Position numbers and translations under genes: made by a program. A stretch of 64,000 nucleotides of DNA from contig JAKALS010000004.1 in assembly GCA_021813145.1 (NCBI GenBank), positions 8,594 to 72,593 on the forward strand. Direction: 5' to 3'. The first letter of the stretch is position 1; the number at the start of each line of letters is the position of its first letter. The notes beneath the pieces were generated by a model, which worked only from the letters and a program-made list of their open reading frames with translations, was not told the DNA's origin and searched no databases. Shown piece by piece: positions 1,260-56,835 of this stretch. Origin of the DNA: a bacterium (GTDB taxonomy: Bacteria; Patescibacteriota; Microgenomatia; Levybacterales; UBA12049).

Positions 1260-4200
1260 CGACAATTCTAAAAAAATGAAAGATTTAACAGTATTGGACT
1301 TTAAGGCTTTAAAGATTTTATTGGCCGGAAAAGAAGATATTCTTTCCTGGTCATACGGAGAGGTAACAAAACCGGAAACAATAAACTACAGAACTTTAAG
1401 GCCCGAAAAAGACGGACTTTTTGACGAAAGAATTTTCGGTCCCACAAAAGACTGGGAATGCTATTGCGGAAAATATAAGAGAATAAGAAACCGCGGGATA
1501 ATCTGCGATAAATGCGGAGTCGAGGTTACTTTATCGAGAGTGAGGAGAGAAAGAATGGGCCATATTACAATAGCAGCACCCGTTGCCCACGTGTGGTTCT
1601 TTAAGGGATCTTCTTCGCCCTTGTCTCTTATTCTGGATATGTCTCAGAAAAACCTTGAAAGCGTTATCTATTACGCTTCTTATCTTGTTGTAGGCATAGA
1701 CGAAGAAAAGAAAAAAGAAGCTCTTGCCACTCTTAATAAAACAATAGAGGCTAGAAAAGTCGAACAGAAAAAAGAAATGGAAGAGGAAGAAAAGAAAATC
1801 GAAGCCGAAATGGCAGACAAGAAAAAAGACAGCAAAGACATAAAAGTAAAAGGTGAACAAAAGACATTAATAGCGGAAGAGTTAGAGCTTCAGAAGAGAC
1901 AAAAAATAGCAAGACTTAAAGAAAGATTCGATACCGAAAATAAGAAACTCGAGGAAATTTCCGAAGCGCTTTCAAGGCTTCTTAAAAGCCTTAAGGTCGG
2001 AAGCGTACTTTCCGAAGACGAATATTACAAGATTCTGGAATACGATATTCCTGTTTTCTTCACAATTAAAACCGGCGCGGAAGGATTAATGGAGCTTGTA
2101 AACAAAATCGACCTTGCAGCTTTAATCATGTCTTTGAGGGAAGAGGCCGAGAAATCAAAAGGACAGAAATACTTAAAGGTAATAAAAAGACTAAGACTCA
2201 TCGAGGATATGAGAAAAGCGGGAGTTTCTCCTTCCAACATGGTATTTACGGTACTTCCCGTTATCCCTCCGGATTTAAGGCCTATGGTACAGCTGGCCGG
2301 CGGAAGATTCGCAACCTCGGACCTTAACGATTTATACAGAAGAGTAATAAACAGGAATAACAGACTGAAACACTTAATAGGACTCGGAGCTCCCGAGATA
2401 ATTTTAAGAAACGAAAAGAGAATGCTTCAGGAATCGGTCGATTCTTTAATAGACGCGTCTCAGAGAAGCGGACAGTTTGTTGCTTCGCCTTTGAGGTCTT
2501 TGTCTGACATGCTAAGGGGAAAACAGGGAAGATTCAGACAAAACCTTTTGGGTAAAAGGGTAGATTATTCCGGACGTTCCGTAATCGTCGTCGGACCCCA
2601 GCTTAATATTTCCCAGTGCGGACTTCCGAAAGAAATGGCTTTGGAAATGTTTAAACCCTTCGTACTTAGGGAAGTAATACTCAGAGGTTTTGCTCCTAAC
2701 ATCAAATCCGCTAAAAGATTTATAGAAAAAAGACCTCCCGAAGTGTTCGATATCTTGGAGGAAATAACAATGAATCATCCTGTCCTTTTAAACCGCGCGC
2801 CTACGCTTCATAAACTTGGAATCCAGGCATTCTATCCGATATTGACAGAGGGTTCGGCAATCTCTTTGCATCCTTGCGTTTGCGCAGGATACAATGCGGA
2901 CTTTGACGGAGACCAGATGGCAGTACATATTCCGCTTTCTCAAAAAGCACAGCAGGAAGCGATAGACCTTATGATGCCAAAAAACAATCTATTAAAACCC
3001 GCGGACGGAAGTCCGATTACTCTTCCCAACAAAGAAATGGCCGTCGGAGTTTTCTATCTTACTTCAATGGACGAGGCATTAAGAAAAGAGGAGATTCCTA
3101 TGTTTTCGGGTTATCATGAAGCTCTTTTGGCAAATTCGTTTAAAAAGGTATCCTTAAGGGAACCTATCAGCGTAAAAGTGGACGGAAAACTCGTAGAAAC
3201 AACCCTTGGAAGACTTATGTTCAACGAAAGACTTCCAAAGGCGTTAGGTTTTATAAACGAACCTATAAAAGCTTCGGGAATTAAAAGACTGGTTACAAGA
3301 GCTATTTCTCTTGTAAGTTCGGAAGAAGTAGCAAACCTTATAGACAGTATAAAAGCATTAGGATTCTACGGTTCCACGATTTCGGGAATTTCGGTTTCGG
3401 TATTCGATAATACAATGGTTTCGGAGAAAGGAAAGTTGATAAAAGAAGCTGAAGAGAAAGTCTCAGGAGTTGAAAATGACTATCAGGAAGGGCTTATTAC
3501 AAATGATGAGAAAAAGAGGCTTTCGAATGAAATCTGGCTCGAGACTACGGATAAACTTGCAAATCTTACATGGAATAATTTAAGCAAGGAGAATGTAATA
3601 AGGGTAATCATAGATTCCGAAGGAGCAAGGGCAGGAAAAGAACAGCTAAAGCAGCTTTCCGCCATGAGAGGACTAATTCTGGATCCTTTGGGAAAAATTG
3701 TCGAGCTTCCGATTAAATCGAACTTCAGACAGGGACTTTCAATTTTTGAATACGTGGCTTCGGCAAGAGGTTCGAGAAAAGGTCTTACGGATTCGGCATT
3801 AAAGACCGCAAATGCAGGATATCTGACCAGAAGACTCGTCGACGTTTCGCACGACGTAATAATAAGAGATGAAGATTGCGGAACTACGGAAGGAATAGTG
3901 ATAAAGGCAAACGAGGCCGACAGGACAGCCGCTTTCGGGGACAGAATTTTGGGAAGGTTTGCCGCTACGCACATTGTTTCGAAGAAAAATAAGAAAGAAC
4001 TGGTAAAAGCGGGCGAAGAAATAACGGAGGATAAGGTAAAAGAAATTCTTGACAATGAAATAGACGAAGTAGTCGTAAGAAGCCCGATTACCTGCAAACT
4101 TGAATACGGAATTTGCGTAAAATGCTACGGCTGGGATTTCTCAAACAGAAGAAAAGTAGACCTCGGAGTTCCGGTCGGAGTAGTAGCCGCACAGTCCATC

Positions 4201-4971
4201 GGAGAGCCGGGAACACAGCTTACGATGAGGGTAAGACATTTCGGAGGAGTCGTAATGAGCGACGTTACTCAAGGTCTTCCGAGGGTAGAGGAACTCTTTG
4301 AAATGAGAACTCCCAAAAACCTTTCGCCTATAACCGATATTGCAGGAAAAGTAAGCATAGAAACAACAGAAGACGGATATATAGTAAGAGTAAAGAATTC
4401 GAGAGTCAAACCAAACGAAGAAAGAGAATATTTTGTTCCCTTGGCATCGACACTAACAGTTTCTGACGGAGACGAAGTCGGGGTCGGAACACAGCTTGCA
4501 CAAGGATATTTGGATCCGAAGGAAATACTTAAAGTAAAAGACCTTTTGGATGCACAAAGATACATCATAAACGAAGCACAGAAAGTTTATGAATCACAGG
4601 GAATAGTAATAAACGACAAGCATTTTGAAGTAATTCTTAGAAAAATGTCCGATAAGGTAATAATAGAAACAGTCGGAGACACGGCTCTTATTCCGGGAGA
4701 CTTCATAACAAAGACAAGATTCGACGAGATAAATGCAGAAGTGTTATCCCAGGGCGGAGAACCTGCAACGGCAAGACAGGTAATACTGGGAATTACAAAG
4801 TCATCTCTCTTCTCAGATTCATGGCTTTCGGCTTCCTCGTTCCAGGAGACCACTAAAGTTCTTACGGAAGCTGCTTTGGAAGGGGCGGAAGACAAGCTTG
4901 TCGGACTTAAGGAAAACGTAATAATCGGAAGACTCATTCCGGTTGATAGCAAGGAAGCAGTTGAAGTATAA
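1252..4971 (+). CDS. rpoC: DNA-directed RNA polymerase beta' subunit
   Basis: 1239 aa; Zn-finger [23 protein letters not shown], catalytic [12 protein letters not shown] motif, overlaps rpoB stop. Confidence 0.97.
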
Positions 4972-6092: not shown

Positions 6093-8204
6093 ATGGCAGA
6101 ACAAACACAAGACAGGTTAAAAAGTTTAGATAAAGTAAGAAACATAGGGATTATTGCCCATATAGACGCCGGCAAGACAACAACTACAGAGCGTATTCTT
6201 TTTTATACCGGAAAAACCTACAAAATAGGAGATATTGACGAAGGAAACACTCAGATGGACTGGATGGAACAAGAAAGAGAAAGAGGAATTACAATCGTTT
6301 CCGCCGCAACTACGGCTTTTTGGAAAGATTACAGAATAAATATTATAGATACTCCCGGACATGTAGATTTTACCGCAGAAGTTGAAAGGTCGTTAAGGGT
6401 TTTAGACGGGGGAATAACTGTTTTGGACGCGGAAGAAGGAGTGCAATCGCAGTCAGAAACAGTCTGGAGACAGGCAGATAAATATAAAGTTCCTAGGCTT
6501 TGTTTTGTAAACAAAATGGATAAATTAGGAGCGGATTTTCTCGCAACTGTTAAATCCATAGAAGACAGACTCGGGGCAAATCCCCTTATAATGGTTCTTC
6601 CCATCGGTTCGGAATCTTCCTATAAAGGGATAGTTCATTTATTGGAAATGAAATCTTATATCTGGGGCTCGGACGAGTTGGGTGCAAAATTTGAGGTTTC
6701 GGATGAAATACCCGAAGACATGAAGGCCCAGGTGGAAGAATACAGGCATAAACTTATTGAAAAAATAGCGGAAACCGACGACGTTTTAATAGAAAAATAT
6801 TTAAACGGAGAAGAAATTTCAAACGACGAATTAAAAGCGGCTTTAAGGCGTGCGGTAATCGCTTATAAACTTGTCCCGATTTTTGCAGGATCATCTCTTA
6901 GAAACAAAGGTGTTCAGCCCCTTTTGGATGCGGTAGTAGATTATCTTCCTTCGCCTTTGGATGTGGGAGCAGTAACCGGAACAAATCCAAAGACAAACGG
7001 AGAAGAAAAAAGAGAGCCTAAAGAAGCAGATCCCATGGCAGGACTTGCTTTTAAAATACAGATAGACCCGCATGTTGGAAAACTCACATACTTTAGGGTC
7101 TATTCCGGAAAAATCCAGGCGGGTTCCTATATTTATAACTCCAATAAAAACAACACGGAAAGAGTCGGAAGGATTCTTTTGATGCATGCAAACCACAGGG
7201 AAGAAATAAAAGAAGCTTATGCGGGAGAGATTGTAGCTTTGGTCGGACTTAAGGATACAATAACAGGGGACACGCTTTGCGATGAAAATGCACCCATAAT
7301 TTTGGAGCAGATCTCTTTTCCCGAACCCGTTATTTCTTTGGCAATAGAACCAAAAACAAAAGCGGACCAGGAAAAACTGGGGTTTGCTCTTAAAAGGCTT
7401 TCCGAAGAAGATCCGACATTTTCTATAAAAACAAACCACGAAACAGGACAGACAATTATCTCGGGAATGGGAGAATTACAACTTGAGGTTATGGTAGACA
7501 GGATGAAAAGAGAATTCGGTGTTTTGGCAAATGTCGGAGCTCCCCAGGTAGCTTATAAGGAAACTGTTAAGGGAGAGGGAGAAGGAGAAGGAAAATACAT
7601 AAGACAGTCCGGAGGACATGGACAATACGGACACTGCTGGCTTAGGGTTAAACCCAAGGCAAGAGGTGAAGGATACGAGTTTGTCGATGCTATTAAAGGA
7701 GGAGCAATCCCCGCGGAGTTTGTTGTTTCTATACAAAAAGGAGTCAAGGAGACAATGGAAAACGGAATTCTTTTGGGATACCCGATGGTGGATATGGAAG
7801 TAACGGTTTATGACGGAAGTTTCCACGAAGTAGACTCTTCCGATATGGCATTTAAGATAGCAGCTTCCCAGGCCTTACAGGCAGCGGCCAAAAAAGCAGA
7901 ATTGTCGCTTTTGGAGCCTATTATGAAAGTTGAAGTTACGACTCCTTCGGAGTTTATGGGAGATGTAATAGGAGATTTGTCCGCAAAAAGGGCGCAGATT
8001 ATGGGAACGGAAGAAAGAGGGAAAGCAACTGTTATTTTGGCAATGGTTCCTTTGGCCGAGCTTTCCGGTTATGCAACAACTTTAAGGTCTATGTCGCAAG
8101 GCCGTGCATCTTATTATATGGAACCTTCACATTACGAAGAAGTTCCGCAAAATATAGTAGCCCAAATGCTTGCAAAATCCACATTTACGGGAAGAGTCGA
8201 ATAA
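6093..8204 (+). CDS. fusA: Elongation factor G
   Basis: 703 aa; G-domain [27 protein letters not shown] motifs. Confidence 0.97.
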
Positions 8205-35194: not shown

Positions 35195-35853
35195 TGGCAG
35201 TAGAAAGAATCGGAGATTCTCTTAGGGAAGAGTCAGGAATTGAACGGGAAGTCGTTCAAAGCGCCGGAGTGGCGCTTTTAATAGTAGGTTTTGATCCTTT
35301 AAAAAACGGAGATAATATAACGGATCCCCTTATCTGGACAATAACCGAACTTCAGGATAAACCCGAAACACAAAAAAGGGCAGGAGACACTTCTATTCCA
35401 TCAGAAACAAGAAAACAAAATGAAACAAGAACACAGAATATTTTGGGAGCTTTGGCTGAATTTTGTGATGAAGGCTGCGTAGGCGGATTAAGCAGACATT
35501 TATTTTTTGCCCCCGGTTCTTATAAGGATGAAGCAATTTCTATAAACGGCAATCTTGTAGATATCGGCGTTTTGGTTTACGACGGTCCTTTAGATGTTTT
35601 TTTTAATCCCCAAAACTGCGAGGAGGTCTCGGGAAACGGATGGCAAAAAAGAAGCGTTATCGAGCAAGGAGAAAATATAAGAAGTGTTTTAAGGCTTGCG
35701 CTGGAGGAGGATAAAAAAGAGGGTTTAACAAGAAAGGCACTCGAGACGTACTATGCAAATTCCGGGATACAAATAGTCCCGGAAGGTTTTTCTATAAGAA
35801 ATTATTACCAAGCAAGAGAAAGCCGAAAGGACCTTACCCTTAAAAAAGGTTAA
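35194..35853 (+). CDS. Hypothetical protein (219 aa) translationally coupled to IPK (TAATG)
   Basis: ORF only; no recognisable motif; operon context with isoprenoid genes. Confidence 0.5.
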   Translation: MAVERIGDSLREESGIEREVVQSAGVALLIVGFDPLKNGDNITDPLIWTITELQDKPETQKRAGDTSIPSETRKQNETRTQNILGALAEFCDEGCVGGLSRHLFFAPGSYKDEAISINGNLVDIGVLVYDGPLDVFFNPQNCEEVSGNGWQKRSVIEQGENIRSVLRLALEEDKKEGLTRKALETYYANSGIQIVPEGFSIRNYYQARESRKDLTLKKG

Positions 35854-36914
35854 TTCTGTCTTATCCTCATTGATTCTATGAGTATTAAACAAATTTCCTT
35901 GCATTCTTCCGGCAGAAGAGAATTTTCTATTATTTTTTTTGCTTCATTTAAATTTTTAAGAATTTCCAGTTTTCCTTCTTCTATAGCTCTTGATTTCTCA
36001 AAAATTTCTATAACTTCTTTCTGCTCATTATCTTTTAATTCTTTTCCGAAATATTTTAATAATTTTTCTTTTTGTTGTTTTGTTCCTTTTTCAAAAACAT
36101 AATCCGTAAAAAAAGTATGCTGGTGTTCGGCAATATCCCTTAGAGTATTTTTCTCCAATATTTTAGGGTCTCCTACAATATCCAGCAAATCGTCCTGCAT
36201 TTGGAAAGCAATTCCTAGCCTAGTCCCCAGCTCTTCGCAAAAAGCGTCCATATTGCTGTTGGGGTTTGCTAGATGGGCTCCTATTTGCATGGGCCTGACA
36301 AAGGTGTAGCGGGAAGTTTTAAGCCTTGTTTTATCCTCAATTAAGTTTTTCTTTGCCTTTTTTCTTGTTGCTATATCTATATCCAGAATCTGGCCGAAAC
36401 ATAATTCGTCCACCATTTTGTAAAAATAATTTTGGCTGCTGTTGAGATTTTCCTTTGGAAAATTTTTGTTTCCCAGGAAAAGTTCCATTGCCCAGGAAAA
36501 AAAGAGGTCTCCCATCAGTATCCCCTGGGCGTTTGAGGCGTTTTCCAGATCTCCCGTTCTTTTTTCTTCCTTAAGCCTTTTTAAAACAAAAGCGGGAATT
36601 GTATCCACGCCGTGTCTTTTGTATTGTTTATCCATTATGTCGTCGTGGATCAATGCAAAGTTATGAAATATTTCCAAAGAAACAAAAAGTTTTAATGCGT
36701 TTTGTATATCTTTTCCTCCGTTTGCCGTGTACATTACATAGGCAATGTACGGCCTTATCCTTTTTCCTCCGGCCATTGTTAATTTTTCCGAGTATTCTAT
36801 AAAATCTTTTATGAAATTATCTGAAGAATTAGACGAAAACTTCTTAAGCCTTTGTTCGAGAAAATTTTTTAGTATGGGGTCGAAGACCTGCTTAAATTCC
36901 TGTAGGTTATACAT
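35850..36914 (-). CDS. Polyprenyl (geranylgeranyl/farnesyl) diphosphate synthase; start moved to ATG 36914 because tracked start 37001 runs through tRNA-Pro
   Basis: FARM FALIHDDIMD and SARM MQDDLLD motifs. Confidence 0.85.
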   Translation of the reverse strand: MYNLQEFKQVFDPILKNFLEQRLKKFSSNSSDNFIKDFIEYSEKLTMAGGKRIRPYIAYVMYTANGGKDIQNALKLFVSLEIFHNFALIHDDIMDKQYKRHGVDTIPAFVLKRLKEEKRTGDLENASNAQGILMGDLFFSWAMELFLGNKNFPKENLNSSQNYFYKMVDELCFGQILDIDIATRKKAKKNLIEDKTRLKTSRYTFVRPMQIGAHLANPNSNMDAFCEELGTRLGIAFQMQDDLLDIVGDPKILEKNTLRDIAEHQHTFFTDYVFEKGTKQQKEKLLKYFGKELKDNEQKEVIEIFEKSRAIEEGKLEILKNLNEAKKIIENSLLPEECKEICLILIESMRIRQN

Positions 36915-36920
36915 AAAAAG

Positions 36921-36991
36921 TCGGGGTGCCGAGAATTGAACTCGGCCCACACGCACCCCATGCGCGCATTCTACCGATAAACTACACCCCG
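36921..36991 (-). tRNA. tRNA-Pro (anticodon GGG)
   Basis: Hand-folded cloverleaf: 7-bp acceptor CGGGGUG/CACCCCG with C1-G72 and A73 (bacterial Pro identity), anticodon loop AUGGGGU, T-arm CCGAG-UUCAAUU-CUCGG. Confidence 0.8.
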
Positions 36992-37086
36992 TTTGTGCCA
37001 TTGAATTATATCAAAAAAAGTCCAGGCATGGTACAGTTTGACCTATTGTATTTTGTTAGAGTTTTGTTCTACAATATTTCAGAAAT

Positions 37087-52220: not shown

Positions 52221-53408
52221 ATGCCTCAACAAGATTTCTATAAAAAAATTGAATCCGAAGTATCTTCTTTTAAGTCCCCGTATGTAATTGGATCCGGACA
52301 AGGCGCATATTTAAAAATTAACGGGCAAGACAAACTTAATTTTTGCTCAAGCCATTATCTGGGATTTGCCGTAGACCAAAGGCTTAAAGATGCCGTTTGC
52401 GAAGCCGTCCAAAAGTATGGAGTCGGAACAGGTTACAGGACCTTGGCGGGTACTCATTCTCTTCATCTAGAGCTTGAAGAAGCGATAGCAAAATTTAAAG
52501 GCACGGAAGCTGCGGTAGTATTTTCAAGCGCTTATATGGCGAATGCGGCAGCCATTCAGACGATTATAGGAAAAGACGATGTCGTAATTTCGGACGAGCT
52601 TAATCATGCTTCCATAATCGATGCAGTAAGGCTCTCTCAGGTTAAAAATAAATTTATATACAAACACGTGGATACGAACGATCTTGAGGAAAAACTCAAG
52701 GAAGCTTCAAAAACAGTAAAGCCCGACGGGGAAAAGCCTTTAATGCTTATTGTTACCGACGGCGTGTTTTCCATGGACGGAGATTTGGCTCCTTTGCCTA
52801 AAATTGTAGAATTGGCCAGAAAATACGGCGCTTTGACAATGGTTGACGATGCCCACGGGGAAGGAGTTTTGGGAAAAGGCGGACGCGGAATCGTAGACCA
52901 TTTTGGTCTGGTTGGAGAAATAGATATAGAAATCGGAAGCCTGTCAAAAGCATTTTCGGTTATAGGTGGATTTATTGCAGGAAAAAAGAACCTGATAAAT
53001 TATTACAACTTAAAATCCAGGCAAAGGCTTTTTTCTATAGCGCTGACGATCCCCGATACGGCAGCAGCATTAAAGGCGGTGAACATTCTTCTTGAGTCCG
53101 ATGCCCAGGTTAAAAAACTTTGGGAGAATGTTGATTATCTCCAGCACGAATTTAAAAGACTGGGTTTTGATACGGGAAATTCTAAGACTCCGATAATACC
53201 GGTAATGATAGGCGATGAAGACAAGGCAAGGGAATTCAGCACAAAATTGTTCGAGGAGAATGTGTTTGCGACTCCTATTCTTTTCCCGATGGTTGCAAAA
53301 GGGAAAGCGAGAATAAGGATAATTGCCTCAGCCTCCCATTCAAAAGAAGACCTCAAAAAGGGGATAGAGGCATTCGAAAAAATAGGGAAAGAGATGCAGA
53401 TCATATGA
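52221..53408 (+). CDS. kbl: 2-amino-3-ketobutyrate CoA ligase / 8-amino-7-oxononanoate synthase family (class II PLP aminotransferase)
   Basis: 395 aa; PLP-lysine region SLSKAF; adjacent to tdh favours Kbl. Confidence 0.8.
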   Translation: MPQQDFYKKIESEVSSFKSPYVIGSGQGAYLKINGQDKLNFCSSHYLGFAVDQRLKDAVCEAVQKYGVGTGYRTLAGTHSLHLELEEAIAKFKGTEAAVVFSSAYMANAAAIQTIIGKDDVVISDELNHASIIDAVRLSQVKNKFIYKHVDTNDLEEKLKEASKTVKPDGEKPLMLIVTDGVFSMDGDLAPLPKIVELARKYGALTMVDDAHGEGVLGKGGRGIVDHFGLVGEIDIEIGSLSKAFSVIGGFIAGKKNLINYYNLKSRQRLFSIALTIPDTAAALKAVNILLESDAQVKKLWENVDYLQHEFKRLGFDTGNSKTPIIPVMIGDEDKAREFSTKLFEENVFATPILFPMVAKGKARIRIIASASHSKEDLKKGIEAFEKIGKEMQII

Positions 53409-54340
53409 AAAAAATCTTAGTCACCGGAGCATTCGGCCAGATTGGCTCCGAGCTTGTCCCCGCCCTTTATAAGGAATACGGAAAAGAGAATGTCGTATCC
53501 ATGGGACATTCAACTATTAGCCTGGGCTTTGACGGTACTTTGGAAAAAGCTGATGCAAGAGATAAAGAAGCTCTAAGAGGCATAATAAAAAAATACGACA
53601 TAGATACTGTTTATCATTTGGTTTCTCTTCTTTCCGCAAAAGGTGAGGTTGACCCTTCTCTTACATGGGACATTAACATGAACGGCTTAAAAAATGTTCT
53701 TGATCTAGGGGTAGAATTTAAACTTAAAATCTATTGGCCAAGTTCTATTGCAGCCTTCGGGCCGACAACTCCAAGAGAGGATACCCCCCAGCATACTGTT
53801 TTGGAGCCTACAACAATGTATGGAGTTACAAAAACAGCCGGTGAGGGGCTTTGCCGCTATTACAATGTTAAATACGGATTGGATGTAAGGTCACTAAGAT
53901 ATCCAGGCATTATTTCCTGGAAAACTCCTCCGGGCGGAGGAACAACCGATTATGCGGTAGCAATTTTTTATGAAGGCATAAAAACGGGAAAATATGAATG
54001 CTTTGTGGGTCCGGATACGATGCTGCCCATGATGTATATAGACGATGCAATAAGAGCAACGGTAGAGCTTATGAAGGCAGACTTAAAAACAGACAGCTGG
54101 AACAGTTATAATTTGTCAGCAGTAAGCTTTACCGCCAAAGAGCTGGAGGAGGAGTTAAGAAAATATCTGCCGGATTTGACTATAACATATAAACCAGACC
54201 ATAGACAAAAAATTGCCGATTCCTGGCCAAAGTCTATTGATGACAGTCAGGCCCGGAAAGACTGGGGTTGGAAACACGAATACGGGCTTTCGGAAATAAC
54301 AAAAGTTATGGTAGAGAATCTTAAAAAGGTTCTTGCTTAA
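53405..54340 (+). CDS. tdh: L-threonine 3-dehydrogenase (NAD-dependent epimerase/dehydratase-family type)
   Basis: MKKILVTGAFGQIGSEL Rossmann start; YxxxK; coupled to kbl. Confidence 0.75.
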   Translation: MKKILVTGAFGQIGSELVPALYKEYGKENVVSMGHSTISLGFDGTLEKADARDKEALRGIIKKYDIDTVYHLVSLLSAKGEVDPSLTWDINMNGLKNVLDLGVEFKLKIYWPSSIAAFGPTTPREDTPQHTVLEPTTMYGVTKTAGEGLCRYYNVKYGLDVRSLRYPGIISWKTPPGGGTTDYAVAIFYEGIKTGKYECFVGPDTMLPMMYIDDAIRATVELMKADLKTDSWNSYNLSAVSFTAKELEEELRKYLPDLTITYKPDHRQKIADSWPKSIDDSQARKDWGWKHEYGLSEITKVMVENLKKVLA

Positions 54341-54415
54341 TGCCATGCTTTTGTGATATAAATCACTTATTCAATGGTAATTAAATTCGGTTTCGATTCA
54401 AAGAAGTCCAAGAAG

Positions 54416-54436
54416 ACCCTCTTAACGAGGGGTTTT
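54416..54436 (+). terminator. Intrinsic terminator CCCTC-uuaac-GAGGG + U-run
   Basis: Seen in sequence. Confidence 0.55.
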
Positions 54437-54472
54437 GTCTTGGAGTAAAATAAAAAACTCAGAGAAAGACGA

Positions 54473-54495
54473 CCCCTCAAAATGAGGGGTTTTTT
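54473..54495 (+). terminator. Intrinsic terminator CCCCUCA-aaa-UGAGGGG + U6
   Basis: Seen in sequence. Confidence 0.65.
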
Positions 54496-54521
54496 AGTGG
54501 AAAAAAGGAGGTGAATAATAA

Positions 54522-54788
54522 ATGAAAGAACATTTTAAACCGGTTGACGGGGATTTTCCGGATATGCCCAGGGTAATAAGATACAGGACGCCAAGAGACG
54601 AAAGAGTAGTAGTAAAATTTGGGACAGTTTTTGGATATCCAGCTACCGATTATGCCGTAAGGAATAGAAGAGGACAGGTTGTAAGTGAAGGACTAAGTTG
54701 GGGAGTTAACTTTGATACTGCTTTGACTGCAGGGTTAAAATATGACGGAAGAAGAGGAAAAGTGCTTTTAAGCCGTCTTGTGAGGTAG
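54522..54788 (+). CDS. Hypothetical Arg-rich small protein (88 aa) with perfect SD AAGGAGGTGA
   Basis: ORF + 10-nt perfect Shine-Dalgarno; no signal peptide or TM. Confidence 0.55.
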   Translation: MKEHFKPVDGDFPDMPRVIRYRTPRDERVVVKFGTVFGYPATDYAVRNRRGQVVSEGLSWGVNFDTALTAGLKYDGRRGKVLLSRLVR

Positions 54789-54820
54789 GTAAACTTTAAT
54801 AAAAAAGGAGGTGAATTATT

Positions 54821-55306
54821 ATGAAAGAAAACGGTAGAAATCGTGGAACAGAAAATGCAGTCTCTTATGAAACAGTTGAGGCTTCCAGGTTTCCCTGGTT
54901 AAGAGGCCCGCAAAGATGTCCCGTGACAACGGAGCAGGTGGGAGACAGAACAATTAGGATAATCGATATAACAGGAACACATCCTGTTTTAGATTCTTTG
55001 AGTAAAAAACTTAACGGAAGTACGCAAAGAGCGAATTCATTAATAAGAACAAGCATAGGAAGAGGACTTGCCAACGGAGGGGTTGTACAAGGGGCACAGA
55101 TTTTAAGGGAAAGAGGAAGAAATTCTTCTCTTATAGGAGTTGCAACAACCGACCCGAATGAAAGGACAAGGTTAAGTGCAATTTATACAGCTCCAGATTC
55201 CGATAACAGAAGTTATATTGTTTCAAGGTCTATGTATGAGGATTCAAGAAAAGTCTTGCAGGCGCTGGCTTCTGTCGGGTATGTTTCCTCCGGTAGAGGA
55301 AATTAA
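54821..55306 (+). CDS. Hypothetical Arg/Gly/Ser-rich protein (161 aa) with identical perfect SD context
   Basis: ORF + AAAAAAGGAGGTGAAT...ATGAAAGAA initiation region identical to upstream gene. Confidence 0.55.
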   Translation: MKENGRNRGTENAVSYETVEASRFPWLRGPQRCPVTTEQVGDRTIRIIDITGTHPVLDSLSKKLNGSTQRANSLIRTSIGRGLANGGVVQGAQILRERGRNSSLIGVATTDPNERTRLSAIYTAPDSDNRSYIVSRSMYEDSRKVLQALASVGYVSSGRGN

Positions 55307-55323
55307 TGTGGTAGAATAGCATT

Positions 55324-56835
55324 ATGTTCTGGGCAGATAAAGTAGCGGAAGAAGTTATAAAATCCGGCAAATACAAACCTTATTGGGTGGATGACATGAA
55401 AACTCCCTCGGGTTTTTCCCATGTAGGCTCAATGATGGGTCCTGTCGTTCACAGTATGGTCTATAGGGCTCTAAAAGACGTGGGCAAAGAAGATACTTTT
55501 ACTTTTGTTATCAACGATTTTGATCCGGCTGACGATTTGTTACCCGAAGTCCGGGGGAAATACGAGAAGTATTTGGGGATGCCTTTAAAGCTTTTTCCTT
55601 CTCCCGACCCTTCTTTTCAAAGTATGGGAGATATGTTTGCCGCAGATTTTGTAGGTTCAATTAGAAATTTGGGAGTAGAGGCAGAGATGCTTTCTTCCTG
55701 GGAGCTTTACCATCAGGGAAAATTTGACGAAGTTATAAGGCTTGCCTTGGATAACGCAGAAAAAATCCAAGATATTTACCAGAAAGTAAGCGGCAGCAGG
55801 AAAAAAGAAGCCGGGTGGCTCCCTTTTCAGGTAATTTGTGAAAATTGCCAAAAACTCGGGACAACAAGAGTTTTTGCCTGGGACGGGGAAAAAGTTTCAT
55901 ATAAGTGTGAGTCTAATCTTGTTAAATGGGCTGTGGGTTGCGGATACGAAGGAAAAATTTCTCCATTCGGCGGAACCGGAAAACTGCCCTGGAAAGTTGA
56001 CTGGGCAGCACACTGGAAAGTAATAGGGGTAACAATAGAAGGCGCGGGCAAAGACCATGCCTCAAAAGGCGGTTCATACGATATAGCAATGACAATATGC
56101 GAAGAAGTTTTTAAATATCCCCATCCTTTTAAGCTTCCCTACGAATTCGTCTTAATCGGTGGCAAAAAAATGTCTTCTTCCAAAGGCCTTGGTCTGAAGG
56201 CCCACGACCTTGTTGAGATTCTTCCTCCGCAACTGGGGCGTTTTCTTTTTGCAAGAAACGGTATAAGGTCGCAGACAAATTTTGACCCTGTTGGCACGGA
56301 TGCTATTCCCCTTCTTTTTGACGATTATCAAAAAGCGGCAGATGCTTATTTTGATAAAGGGGACGAAGATTCGGCCAGAGCTTTCGAACTTTCACAAATA
56401 GGAAAAATCCAAAAACCTCCGTCTGTAAGGTTTTCGGTTTTGGCTCAATGGATACAGATGCCAAATATGGAGGAGGAAATTAAAAAAAAGGGACTTGAGG
56501 AGTGGGCAAAATATGCAAGAATATGGGTCGAAAGATTTGCTCCGGATAAAGACAGGTTTACCGTACAAAAAGAGCTGCCGATTAGCGCAAGGGAACTTTC
56601 CCAAAAACAAAAAGAGTTTTTAAGAAATATTGCAAAAGAGCTGGATAAAAAATGGGAGGGAGAAGAATTCCAAACCAGAATTTATGATATCGGAAAAGAA
56701 TTGGGCTTGGGAGGAAAAGACGCTTTTAAAGCGATCTATTTATCTTTAATCGGAAAAGACCACGGTCCAAAAGCGGCATGGTTAATTCTTTCTTTGGATA
56801 AAAACTTTGTAGAAAAAAGATTTAATGAGGTTTAA
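55324..56835 (+). CDS. lysK: Lysyl-tRNA synthetase, class I (archaeal-type)
   Basis: PSGFSHVGS (HIGH-like), KMSSSKG (KMSKS), Cys cluster CENC...CES; 503 aa. Confidence 0.8.
   Translation: MFWADKVAEEVIKSGKYKPYWVDDMKTPSGFSHVGSMMGPVVHSMVYRALKDVGKEDTFTFVINDFDPADDLLPEVRGKYEKYLGMPLKLFPSPDPSFQSMGDMFAADFVGSIRNLGVEAEMLSSWELYHQGKFDEVIRLALDNAEKIQDIYQKVSGSRKKEAGWLPFQVICENCQKLGTTRVFAWDGEKVSYKCESNLVKWAVGCGYEGKISPFGGTGKLPWKVDWAAHWKVIGVTIEGAGKDHASKGGSYDIAMTICEEVFKYPHPFKLPYEFVLIGGKKMSSSKGLGLKAHDLVEILPPQLGRFLFARNGIRSQTNFDPVGTDAIPLLFDDYQKAADAYFDKGDEDSARAFELSQIGKIQKPPSVRFSVLAQWIQMPNMEEEIKKKGLEEWAKYARIWVERFAPDKDRFTVQKELPISARELSQKQKEFLRNIAKELDKKWEGEEFQTRIYDIGKELGLGGKDAFKAIYLSLIGKDHGPKAAWLILSLDKNFVEKRFNEV

What the first reader, a model, noticed from the sequence alone, without database searches (positions are those of the whole stretch)
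54522..55306. Two tandem Arg-rich small ORFs with identical perfect Shine-Dalgarno regions immediately upstream of class-I lysK
Both ORFs (88 and 161 aa) are preceded by the same 16-nt AAAAAAGGAGGTGAAT and begin ATGAAAGAA (MKE). The SD is a 10-nt perfect complement of the anti-SD, which is rare in this window and typical of very highly expressed or phage-derived genes. The proteins are Arg/Gly/Ser-rich with few Lys, opposite to the host proteome bias. They have no signal peptide or TM segment. They sit between a double terminator (54416-54495) and lysK (18-nt gap, no terminator), so are likely co-transcribed with lysK. Candidates are a novel RNA/tRNA-binding pair, a toxin-antitoxin or anti-defence pair, or accessory factors of LysRS.
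Basis: partly seen in the sequence, partly recalled or inferred. Interest (0 to 1): 0.6.

Follow-up and report, generated by a model that had tools for sequence, protein, structure and literature searches.

The report
Lysine-starvation operon with lysine-poor cargo genes

Summary
ORF1 (54522-54788) and ORF2 (54821-55306) exist. The 16-nt AAAAAAGGAGGTGAAT occurs exactly twice in the window, and both proteins are Arg-rich and Lys-poor.

ORF2 is a real gene (dN/dS 0.07-0.11). It belongs to a small unannotated family of 15 clusters among 1.84 billion representatives. Every member I could place lies between one conserved RNA leader and class-I lysK. ORF1 is an orphan, but its codon usage is host-like.

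The "double terminator" is a trp-type attenuator:
- a promoter;
- a 24-codon leader ORF, MVIKFGFDSKKSKKTLLTRGFVLE (54374-54448);
- mutually exclusive 1:2, 2:3 and 3:4 helices;
- a stop codon just after segment 2.

In other genomes the same leader precedes a DAP-decarboxylase-type gene and amino-acid-kinase genes, so it most likely senses Lys-tRNA.

The strong SDs are needed because these genes sit inside a long-leader transcript in a genome rich in leaderless-type starts. Lys depletion is shared by 24 cargo ORFs in 14 loci (median K/(K+R) 0.24 against 0.75 for flanking genes), which fits translation during lysine shortage.

The biochemical role of ORF2 is unknown: it matched no family and no fold, and I found no phage or toxin-antitoxin evidence.

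The parts
54333..54363 (+). Promoter of the leader: -35-like TTGCTT (54333-54338, overlapping the stop of the upstream epimerase gene) and an extended -10 region TGTGATATAAAT (54352-54363).
   Evidence: It aligns with TTGACA-17-GAGATAAT in 15 related loci (alignment A4). A consensus match only; the transcription start is not mapped.
54374..54448 (+). Leader-peptide ORF, 24 codons: MVIKFGFDSKKSKKTLLTRGFVLE*. Regulatory Lys codons lie at 54401-54406 and 54410-54415. The ATG is about 10 nt after the -10 region and has no SD, so the mRNA is leaderless or nearly so.
   Evidence: In 17 of 17 leaders the only ATG ORF that spans segments 1-2 is in the Lys-codon frame. There are 3-6 Lys per peptide, with a KKxKK core.
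54408..54421 (+). Attenuator segment 1 (CCAAGAAGACCCTC). It contains the second Lys-codon pair.
   Evidence: It pairs with segment 2 (-14.7 kcal/mol). The 1:2 helix has 93% of cells paired and 4 pairs with changes on both sides in 23 leaders.
54427..54443 (+). Attenuator segment 2 (GAGGGGTTTTGTCTTGG). The leader stop codon TAA follows 2 nt later (54446-54448).
   Evidence: It pairs either with segment 1 or with segment 3 (2:3 antiterminator, -19.1 kcal/mol; 99% of cells paired and 3 pairs with changes on both sides).
54465..54478 (+). Attenuator segment 3 (AAAGACGACCCCTC).
   Evidence: It pairs with segment 2 (antiterminator) or with segment 4 (terminator).
54484..54495 (+). Attenuator segment 4 plus U-tract (GAGGGGTTTTTT). 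The 3:4 pairing is the intrinsic terminator.
   Evidence: The terminator scan finds a 9-bp stem followed by TTTTAG. The 3:4 helix is -14.2 kcal/mol. The covariance model R1 scores 99.8 bits here, and this is the only copy in the window.
54501..54516 (+). First copy of the 16-nt repeat, which contains the SD AAGGAGGTGA of ORF1.
   Evidence: It directly follows the terminator, as the SD of the ORF2 homologue does in L015.
54522..54788 (+). ORF1, 88 aa, pI 10.3: a lineage-specific orphan cargo gene.
   Evidence: Only identical copies were found among 5.8 billion clusters. Codon-usage score is 0.287 per codon in frame against -0.89 and -0.78 in the other frames, equal to true genes and higher than about 99% of 76 spurious ORFs. 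It shows no detectable relation to the slot or N-extension families.
54801..54816 (+). Second copy of the 16-nt repeat, which contains the SD of ORF2. It lies exactly 300 nt after the first copy.
   Evidence: An equivalent SD (AAGGAGGTGAAAAwTTATG) precedes ORF2 homologues in L005, L011, L012, L013 and L015.
54821..55306 (+). ORF2, 161 aa, pI 10.2: a member of a small unannotated family restricted to CPR-type genomes.
   Evidence: dN/dS is 0.07-0.11 against 78-80% identical orthologues. The profile search found 15 clusters among 1.84 billion representatives. The AF2 model has pLDDT 88 and pTM 0.82. No Pfam, NCBIfam, PHROGs, PADLOC or PDB match.
55309..55317 (+). Extended -10-like TGgTAGAAT, 6 nt before the lysK ATG. 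It is probably lysK's own promoter, giving a leaderless mRNA.
   Evidence: The sequence is shown. The same element (TAGAAT or TAAAAT, 6-8 nt before the ATG) is present before lysK in all related loci. Inference; not mapped.
55324..56835 (+). lysK, class-I lysyl-tRNA synthetase.
   Evidence: Pfam tRNA-synt_1f, E = 2e-88.

Best explanation
ORF1 and ORF2 are real protein-coding genes. They are the variable "cargo" of an operon: promoter, Lys leader-peptide attenuator, ORF1, ORF2, lysK.

Proposed mechanism, by analogy with the trp and pheST attenuators:
- Transcription starts a few nt before the leader ATG (54374).
- A ribosome translates the 24-codon leader.
- When Lys-tRNA(Lys) is plentiful, the ribosome reaches the stop at 54446 and masks segment 2. 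The 3:4 terminator then forms and transcription ends at 54495.
- When Lys-tRNA(Lys) is scarce, the ribosome stalls on the KKxKK codons inside segment 1. Segment 2 pairs with segment 3, the terminator cannot form, and RNA polymerase reads into ORF1, ORF2 and lysK.

Consequences for the two ORFs:
- They are internal to a transcript with a leader of about 150 nt, in a genome where many starts look leaderless. They therefore need strong SDs.
- They are made when lysine is limiting, so they have been purged of Lys. Their Arg is almost all AGA/AGG, one transition from AAA/AAG.
- ORF1 probably arose by insertion of about 300 nt together with a duplication of ORF2's initiation region.

The biochemical role of ORF2 is not established. 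My low-confidence guess (about 0.2) is a basic RNA-, tRNA- or ribosome-binding factor that helps the cell cope with Lys-tRNA shortage.

Shown here: gene reality, family, synteny, leader anatomy and composition bias. Inferred: lysine sensing, induction, and the reason for Lys depletion.
For: ORF2 is a gene:
- dN/dS is 0.07-0.11 at dS 0.6-1.7, as low as the neighbouring greA.
- The family has 15 clusters.

ORF1: host-like codon usage in frame only.

Synteny: ORF2-family genes lie in the leader-to-lysK interval in the window, L001-L005, L011, L012, L013, L014, L015/L016, L025, L029, L151, L153, L156 and L157.

Leader:
- It is conserved in 23 copies from 21 loci.
- 17 of 17 leaders have a single ATG ORF across segments 1-2, always in the Lys frame.
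- Energies are -14.7 (1:2), -19.1 (2:3) and -14.2 (3:4) kcal/mol.
- 1:2 plus 3:4 has 93.8% of cells paired and 5 pairs with changes on both sides. 2:3 has 99.2% paired and 3 such pairs.
- Variants L111, L153 and L156 change the peptide C-terminus but keep the Lys codons and an early stop.

Lysine specificity: the same leader precedes a DAP-decarboxylase-type gene plus an AA_kinase gene in L022, and AA_kinase plus lysK in L111.

SD logic: 25 of 71 window ORFs have a -10-like hexamer within 20 nt of the start, and only 14 have SD-like motifs.

Lys depletion:
- 24 cargo ORFs in 14 loci have median K/(K+R) 0.24, against 0.75 for 77 flanking genes (Mann-Whitney p = 9e-14, U = 1).
- 29 of 31 Arg codons in ORF1 and ORF2 are AGA or AGG.

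Conceptual precedents: cognate bias (PMC4209129) and Down-Trp selection in Chlamydia (PMC3937554).
Against: - There are no expression data. Transcription-translation coupling and leaderless initiation have not been shown for these uncultured bacteria.
- The leader is so conserved that covariation is thin: most pairs never vary. Alignment A8 was fitted to the 2:3 + 1:4 structure.
- The Lys codons are also part of the segment-1 stem, so part of their conservation may be structural.
- The known enzymes behind the same leader (lysK, the DAP-decarboxylase-type gene, AA_kinase) are not Lys-poor (K/(K+R) 0.71-0.90). Lys-sparing is therefore not a general rule, and the bias could reflect function (Arg-rich nucleic-acid binding) instead.
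- lysK seems to have its own promoter, so the attenuator may mainly control the cargo.
- ORF1 has no homologue, so selection on it cannot be measured.
- The cargo ORFs are not phylogenetically independent, so the p-value is overstated.
Confidence: 0.6

Rival explanations
1. ORF1 and ORF2 are a type II toxin-antitoxin-like pair. ORF2 would be a RelE/HigB-like, ribosome-dependent toxin and ORF1 its antagonist, lodged next to lysK and perhaps induced by starvation.
For: - These are two small adjacent genes. In relatives the upstream gene overlaps ORF2 by 4 nt.
- The upstream partner is replaceable while ORF2 is kept, and ORF2 types are shuffled relative to partners, as in L001 versus L029.
- The ORF2 core topology (strand, two helices, four strands, helix) resembles my recollection of the RelE/HigB topology. 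HigB2 is among the best PDB matches (TM 0.31/0.43, probability 0.5).
- One related cargo contains an NTP_transf_2 protein.
Against: - The Foldseek E-value is about 0.1, which is not significant.
- No Pfam, PADLOC or NCBIfam match.
- ORF1 has pI 10.3 and no matched domain, so no DNA-binding domain was found.
- Single-chain fusions of slot and ORF2 domains exist: P0006, P0012, P0014.
- The chromosomal position is fixed across lysK divergence down to about 41-55% identity, with no match in phages or viral contigs.
Confidence: 0.12
2. ORF2, with ORF1, is a dedicated accessory factor of class-I LysRS, such as a tRNA(Lys)-binding or editing cofactor, and is required for its function.
For: - The gene neighbourhood with lysK is strictly conserved in every family member placed.
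- The protein is basic and Arg-rich, pI 10.2.
- ORF2 is more conserved than lysK itself between the window and its relative (80% against 55% identity).
Against: - Many lysK loci with the same leader have no ORF2-family gene (L019, L024, L026, L030, L111) or have a different cargo.
- lysK has its own -10 element.
- The family has only 15 clusters, although class-I LysRS is (from general knowledge) far more widespread.
Confidence: 0.1
3. The ORFs are recently acquired phage or mobile-element genes, or anti-defence genes. Their strong SD and odd composition would reflect a foreign origin.
For: The SD is unusually strong for this window. The composition is atypical. The locus content is variable.
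Against: - No tblastn match in 50,697 phage records and none in IMG/VR.
- PHROGs gives only noise, E >= 0.019.
- Codon usage matches host genes. GC is 0.42, inside the host range.
- Arg is encoded by the AT-rich AGA and AGG codons.
- The position is syntenic across divergent genomes.
Confidence: 0.03
4. ORF1 is not a gene. It would be a chance ORF in an insertion, or part of a 5'-UTR element, and only ORF2 would be translated.
For: ORF1 has no homologue outside identical contigs. The single-sequence AF2 model has pLDDT 47. In relatives the slot is filled by unrelated proteins.
Against: - ORF1 has a perfect SD at optimal spacing.
- It is an 88-codon open frame in 39%-GC DNA.
- Its in-frame codon score of 0.287 is typical of true genes and far above the other two frames.
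- It shares the Lys-poor composition of the other cargo ORFs.
Confidence: 0.1

Closest known systems
Ribosome-mediated attenuators with leader peptides: E. coli trpL, hisL, thrL, and pheM upstream of pheST (textbook knowledge; Rfam families Trp_leader, His_leader, Thr_leader, Phe_leader)
   Same: A short leader ORF carries a run of codons for the regulated amino acid inside segment 1. There are four segments with exclusive 1:2, 2:3 and 3:4 pairings. The 3:4 pairing is an intrinsic terminator. The stop codon is placed so that a terminating ribosome masks segment 2. As with pheST, the regulated operon includes the cognate aminoacyl-tRNA synthetase.
   Different: The specificity is for lysine. 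I found no described Lys-specific leader-peptide attenuator in Rfam 15 or in the searched literature; the nearest is a suggested Thr+Lys leader in S. meliloti (PMC10117765). The host is a CPR/Patescibacteria-type genome. The leader ORF has no SD and starts about 10 nt after the -10, so it looks leaderless. The regulated genes include a hypervariable set of unknown Lys-poor proteins.
T-box control of class-I lysK in Bacillus cereus (PMC2916919)
   Same: The regulated gene (lysK) is the same, and so is the logic: more expression when tRNA(Lys) charging falls, through transcription antitermination.
   Different: A T-box senses uncharged tRNA directly through an RNA of more than 200 nt. Here there is no T-box match, the leader is about 120 nt, and sensing is by a translating ribosome. 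That paper stresses how rare regulated LysRS is.
Lysine riboswitch (L-box, RF00168)
   Same: It controls lysine biosynthesis genes (lysC, lysA) by termination or antitermination.
   Different: No Rfam match. There is no five-way junction. The element encodes a peptide, and it would sense Lys-tRNA rather than free lysine.
Cognate bias of biosynthetic enzymes (PMC4209129) and Down-Trp selection in Chlamydiaceae (PMC3937554)
   Same: Proteins that must be made when one amino acid is scarce are depleted in that amino acid.
   Different: Here the depletion affects unknown cargo proteins, not the biosynthetic enzymes or LysRS behind the same leader. It is very strong: K 3.6% against 10.2%.
RelE/HigB-type toxins
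   Same: The topology looks similar (judged against my recollection of the RelE/HigB topology), the protein is basic, and the two-gene layout with a variable upstream partner is similar.
   Different: There is no significant structural or profile match. ORF2 has an extra N-terminal beta-hairpin with an FPW motif, occurs fused to its partner in some genomes, and sits at a fixed locus.

Membership tests
Leader-peptide (ribosome-mediated) transcription attenuator | A short translatable ORF in the leader, starting at a start codon | tested here: met
   In 17 of 17 leaders there is one ATG ORF of 22-27 codons across segments 1-2, and none in the other two frames. In variants L153 and L156 the leader stops within the 1:2 loop, about 17 codons in L153.
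Leader-peptide (ribosome-mediated) transcription attenuator | A cluster of codons for the regulated amino acid at or in segment 1 | tested here: met
   A KKxKK core overlaps segment 1, with 3-6 Lys per peptide. It is kept in divergent variants whose C-termini differ.
Leader-peptide (ribosome-mediated) transcription attenuator | Mutually exclusive 1:2, 2:3 and 3:4 helices, with 3:4 an intrinsic terminator | tested here: met
   Energies are -14.7, -19.1 and -14.2 kcal/mol. The terminator scan finds 3:4. Pair counts are 93.8% and 99.2% of cells paired, with 5 and 3 pairs changed on both sides. Covariation is thin because the sequence is highly conserved.
Leader-peptide (ribosome-mediated) transcription attenuator | The stop codon is placed so that a terminating ribosome covers segment 2 | tested here: met
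   The stop lies 2 nt after segment 2 in 16 leaders, 11 nt after it in L111, and inside the 1:2 loop in L153, L156 and the second copy in L151.
Leader-peptide (ribosome-mediated) transcription attenuator | The downstream genes belong to the metabolism or charging of that amino acid | tested here: met
   lysK in at least 15 loci; a DAP-decarboxylase-type gene plus AA_kinase in L022; AA_kinase plus lysK in L111.
Leader-peptide (ribosome-mediated) transcription attenuator | Read-through increases when the cognate charged tRNA is limiting | not testable with these tools
   This needs Term-seq, a reporter, or an in vitro coupled assay.
T-box riboswitch | Match to the T-box covariance model (specifier loop, T-box sequence) | tested here: not met
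   The Rfam 15 E-value search of 54200-55500 gave only noise at E >= 0.86, with no T-box match.
Lysine riboswitch (RF00168) | Match to the L-box covariance model | tested here: not met
   No match at E <= 10.
RelE/ParE/HigB toxin superfamily (for ORF2) | Sequence or profile match to a toxin family | tested here: not met
   Pfam, NCBIfam and PADLOC: none. hhalign against RelE and YoeB gives probability below 1% (those sequences were recalled from memory).
RelE/ParE/HigB toxin superfamily (for ORF2) | Significant structural superposition on a solved toxin | tested here: inconclusive
Type II toxin-antitoxin module (for the pair) | An upstream antitoxin with a DNA-binding fold (typically acidic) that neutralises the toxin | tested here: not met
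   ORF1 has pI 10.3 and no Pfam domain. Its model is uninformative. Neutralisation cannot be tested here.
Phage-encoded protein families (PHROGs, INPHARED, IMG/VR) | A homologue in phage genomes | tested here: not met
   PHROGs E >= 0.019. tblastn against phages found none. The viral-contig scan found none. BFVD gave no hit with E < 0.001.

The most novel reading that the evidence does not exclude
CPR/Patescibacteria-type bacteria would have a dedicated lysine-starvation regulon. It would be switched by a Lys-specific, leaderless leader-peptide attenuator. Besides lysK, lysA and lysC, it would drive a rapidly exchanging island of Lys-depleted proteins: the ORF2 family with an unassigned fold, several small partner families, and NTase-, GNAT- and DIT1-like enzymes. 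These proteins would be effectors made only when the cell is cut off from lysine, for example growth-arrest factors, ribosome-rescue factors, or factors directed at the host. ORF2 would be the founding member of a new functional class.
Probability: 0.3. Interest if true: 0.8.

Novelty: new variant of a known kind. Interest (0 to 1): 0.64.

Why it matters
Gene regulation in CPR bacteria is largely uncharted, and these organisms depend on others for many amino acids.

- A lysine-specific leader-peptide attenuator would extend a textbook mechanism to an amino acid and a lineage where I found no description of it.
- It would give a directly testable sensor of lysine limitation.
- It would imply tight transcription-translation coupling on a leaderless leader ORF in these cells.
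- The finding defines a set of unknown proteins that are marked both by regulation and by extreme Lys depletion as a starvation response. That turns "hypothetical proteins next to lysK" into a concrete hypothesis about how episymbionts react when lysine runs out.
- It also explains, without invoking phage origin, why two genes carry perfect SDs and an inverted Lys/Arg bias.

Tried and rejected
Annotation searches:
- Pfam, PHROGs, NCBIfam, PADLOC and a PDB sequence search on ORF1, ORF2 and the whole family gave nothing usable.
- Foldseek of the ORF2 model against the PDB and BFVD gave no hit with E < 0.001.
- The listing of cluster members returned no names.

ORF1:
- ORF1 against the 75-aa protein that occupies its slot in relatives: no BLAST alignment.
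- ORF1 against an HMM of the small "slot" family: E = 10.
- ORF1 against the N-terminal extension domain of longer ORF2 homologues: hhalign probability 0.5%. The idea that ORF1 is a split-off domain is therefore not supported.
- The single-sequence AF2 model of ORF1 has pLDDT 47 and is uninformative.

Other comparisons:
- The 178-aa cargo protein of L017/L023 against the ORF2 family: probability 33%, inconclusive.
- RelE and YoeB profile comparison: negative.

Collection scans:
- The search for related loci with the wide alignments failed for lack of conserved stretches. With the close alignment it found nothing in the GTDB representatives.
Only 4 of 120 loci were true leaders.

RNA searches:
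- Rfam found no family for the leader.
- The covariance-model search found no second copy of the leader in the window.

Considered and rejected for the leader:
- A dispersed repeat: there is one copy per locus, always before Lys-related genes.
- A riboswitch: a conserved in-frame ORF with Lys codons, and variants that keep the codons but not the downstream peptide, argue against it.
- A plain double terminator of the upstream operon: a conserved dedicated TTGACA-17-GAGATAAT promoter sits in front of it.
Full report
**1. The observation**

The window has 38.7% GC and carries rpoC, the ribosomal-protein operon, class-I lysK, serS and secA.

- The 16-mer AAAAAAGGAGGTGAAT occurs only at 54501 and 54801; 0.01 matches are expected by chance. 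AAGGAGGTGA occurs nowhere else in the window.
- Both ORFs begin ATGAAAGAA.
- Both proteins are basic (pI 10.3 and 10.2) and Lys-poor. ORF2 has the lowest K/(K+R) of 67 window ORFs, 0.17 against a mean of 0.64.
- Neither has a hydrophobic segment.
- The gap to lysK is 17 nt, not 18.

**2. Are they genes?**

ORF2 is. Orthologues of 78-80% identity sit in the same synteny in related metagenomic contigs. Its dN/dS is 0.07-0.11 with dS of 0.6-1.7, as constrained as the neighbouring greA.

ORF1 has only identical copies in a 5.8-billion-cluster database. In the closest relatives its place is taken by an unrelated 75-aa protein that overlaps ORF2 by 4 nt. Even so, ORF1's in-frame codon usage is typical of host genes:

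- 0.287 per codon in frame, against -0.89 and -0.78 in the other two frames;
- true genes score 0.29 ± 0.085;
- ORF1 scores higher than about 99% of 76 spurious ORFs.

I take ORF1 as a real, lineage-specific gene, with less certainty than ORF2.

Its start region (terminator, SD, ATGAAAGAA) copies that of ORF2, and the two repeats lie exactly 300 nt apart. In L015 the SD of the ORF2 homologue follows the terminator directly. This suggests ORF1 was inserted together with a duplication of ORF2's initiation region. This is an inference.

**3. The ORF2 family**

A profile search of 1.84 billion representatives found only 15 clusters, of 141-507 aa, and the ORF2 domain is always C-terminal. No member matches Pfam, NCBIfam, PADLOC or PDB sequences.

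An AF2 model built on the 17-sequence alignment is confident (pLDDT 88, pTM 0.82). It shows an N-terminal beta-hairpin and then a strand, two helices, four strands, a helix and a strand. Foldseek found nothing significant in the PDB or BFVD. The best PDB hits include HigB2, at E about 0.1 and TM 0.31/0.43.

Every member I could place genomically lies just upstream of class-I lysK, even at 27-28% identity to ORF2: L011, L012, L013, L014, L015/16, L025, L029, L151, L153, L156 and L157.

The upstream "slot" protein varies: 88, 75, 74, 72, 91, 111 or 214 aa. In P0006, P0012 and P0014 a slot-type domain is fused to the ORF2 domain.

**4. The "double terminator" is the key**

The two hairpins are conserved almost base for base in loci whose ORF2 homologue is only 27% identical. 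A pattern scan plus a covariance model recovered 23 copies in 21 loci. These include records named Candidatus Levyibacteriota and Patescibacteria. The window holds one copy, at 99.8 bits.

Each full copy has the following parts:
- a TTGACA-17-GAGATAAT promoter;
- an ATG 7-14 nt after the -10, with no SD;
- a 22-27-codon ORF with a KKxKK core;
- a stop codon right after the first hairpin.

In the window the leader reads MVIKFGFDSKKSKKTLLTRGFVLE* (54374-54448). In 17 of 17 leaders this is the only ATG ORF across the hairpin, and it is always in the Lys-codon frame.

The RNA has four segments:

| Segment | Coordinates |
|---|---|
| 1 | 54408-54421 (contains Lys codons) |
| 2 | 54427-54443 |
| 3 | 54465-54478 |
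| 4 + U-tract | 54484-54495 |

Three mutually exclusive helices form from them: 1:2 at -14.7, 2:3 at -19.1 and 3:4 at -14.2 kcal/mol. Across 23 leaders, 1:2 plus 3:4 keeps 93.8% of cells paired, with five pairs changed on both sides. The 2:3 helix keeps 99.2%, with three such pairs, although that alignment was fitted to 2:3.

Divergent variants (L111, L153, L156) alter the peptide C-terminus or stop earlier, but they keep the Lys codons. This is the architecture of the trp and pheST attenuators.

The same leader also precedes a DAP-decarboxylase-type gene plus an amino-acid kinase in L022, and an amino-acid kinase plus lysK in L111. I therefore conclude that it senses Lys-tRNA(Lys) through ribosome stalling. 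The lysine sensing itself is inferred, not shown.

Rfam 15 has no match. I found no description of such an element in the searched literature. The nearest cases are the T-box on B. cereus lysK (PMC2916919) and a suggested Thr+Lys leader in S. meliloti (PMC10117765).

**5. What this explains**

(a) The strong SDs. Of 71 window ORFs, 25 have a -10-like hexamer within 20 nt of the start and only 14 have an SD-like motif. lysK itself has TGgTAGAAT 6 nt before its ATG, in every locus. ORF1 and ORF2 lie downstream of a leader of about 150 nt, cannot use 5'-terminal initiation, and so need an SD. The same strong SD precedes ORF2 homologues elsewhere.

(b) The composition. In 14 loci, the 24 ORFs between attenuator and lysK come from at least six unrelated families, including NTP_transf_2- and DIT1_PvcA-like proteins.

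| Set | n | Median K/(K+R) | Median K |
|---|---|---|---|
| Cargo ORFs | 24 | 0.24 | 3.6% |
| Flanking genes | 77 | 0.75 | 10.2% |

The distributions hardly overlap (U = 1, p = 9e-14; the ORFs are not phylogenetically independent). Arg in ORF1 and ORF2 is AGA or AGG in 29 of 31 codons, one transition from AAA or AAG. Codon usage and GC are host-like. The bias is therefore selected in place and was not imported.

The natural reading is that these proteins must be translated when Lys-tRNA is limiting. This parallels cognate bias (PMC4209129) and Down-Trp selection (PMC3937554).

One caveat applies: lysK, the DAP-decarboxylase-type gene and the kinases behind the same leader are not Lys-poor. A functional reason, such as Arg-rich RNA binding, cannot be excluded.

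**6. What ORF1 and ORF2 do**

This remains open. I found no phage link.

The toxin-antitoxin idea has some support: the two-gene layout, the swappable partner, and a weak HigB-like topology. It fails on several points:
- profile tests;
- the basic ORF1;
- the existence of fused proteins;
- the fixed locus.

An obligatory LysRS cofactor is unlikely, because many lysK loci with the same leader lack the family.

My working view is that ORF2 is a lysine-limitation-induced, basic, probably RNA- or ribosome-associated protein, and that ORF1 is a lineage-specific partner or add-on. Confidence in that specific function is about 0.2.

**7. Verdict**

The most informative feature, however, lies just outside the reported coordinates.

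- The regulatory element is a new variant of a known kind.
- The ORF2 family is uncharacterised.
- Interest is moderately high, because the model is specific, testable, and concerns a poorly understood lineage.

Noticed in passing
window 55309-55317: lysK is preceded by an extended -10-like TGgTAGAAT 6 nt before its ATG. The equivalent element is conserved before lysK in all related loci, so lysK is probably also transcribed as a leaderless mRNA, independently of the attenuator.
   Followed up: partly
window, whole: 25 of 71 mechanical ORFs have a -10-like hexamer within 20 nt upstream of the start, and only 14 have an SD-like motif. The genome appears rich in leaderless or short-leader mRNAs.
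   Followed up: partly
L151 7512-7603; L156 1401-1496: A second, degenerate copy of the Lys attenuator lies inside the cargo region. Its short leader is MREIYFIELKKTEKNSF* in L151, where it precedes a DIT1_PvcA-like gene that is itself Lys-poor.
   Followed up: partly
L017 and L023 (178-aa cargo, oriented coordinates 6315-6851 and 6667-7203); L025 (206 aa, 4030-4650); P0005, P0009, P0010, P0016: An N-terminal motif MGEAR(M/L)A(R/Q)QMG is shared by many ORF2-family proteins and by a 178-aa cargo protein that is otherwise barely related (hhalign probability 33%). It could be a targeting or regulatory peptide, or a constraint at the RNA level.
   Followed up: no
L001 5400-5440; L011 about 815-860; L017, L023, L025, L029, L151 just after the terminator: A GC-rich hairpin (TCGCCTG...CAGGCGA or TCCGCC...GGCGGA) lies between the attenuator terminator and the first cargo gene in several relatives. 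It is absent in the window.
   Followed up: no
L017, L019, L021, L025, L026, L027, L030: GenBank TPA MAG records titled "uncultured Gammaproteobacteria" have 32-38% GC and carry the CPR-type leader, class-I lysK and the same synteny. Their taxonomic labels look wrong.
   Followed up: no
L027 2692-4226; L021 7544-8000: The same Lys leader also precedes a 410-aa protein (weak GNAT match, Lys-poor) followed by a histone-deacetylase-family gene in L027, and an unknown Lys-poor protein of at least 152 aa in L021. The regulon may therefore extend beyond lysK, lysA and lysC.
   Followed up: partly
window 36920-36991 (-): tRNA-Pro(GGG) overlaps the 5' end of the mechanical ORF 35850-37001. The real start of that gene must lie downstream.
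   Followed up: no
window 53405-54340 and 54333-54338: The upstream epimerase gene has no terminator of its own, and its stop codon overlaps the -35 of the leader promoter.
   Followed up: partly
L001 versus L029: The 75/80-aa slot proteins are 73% identical, but the ORF2-family genes next to them are only about 32% identical (window-type against P0016-type). This indicates modular exchange of cargo genes between related genomes.
   Followed up: partly
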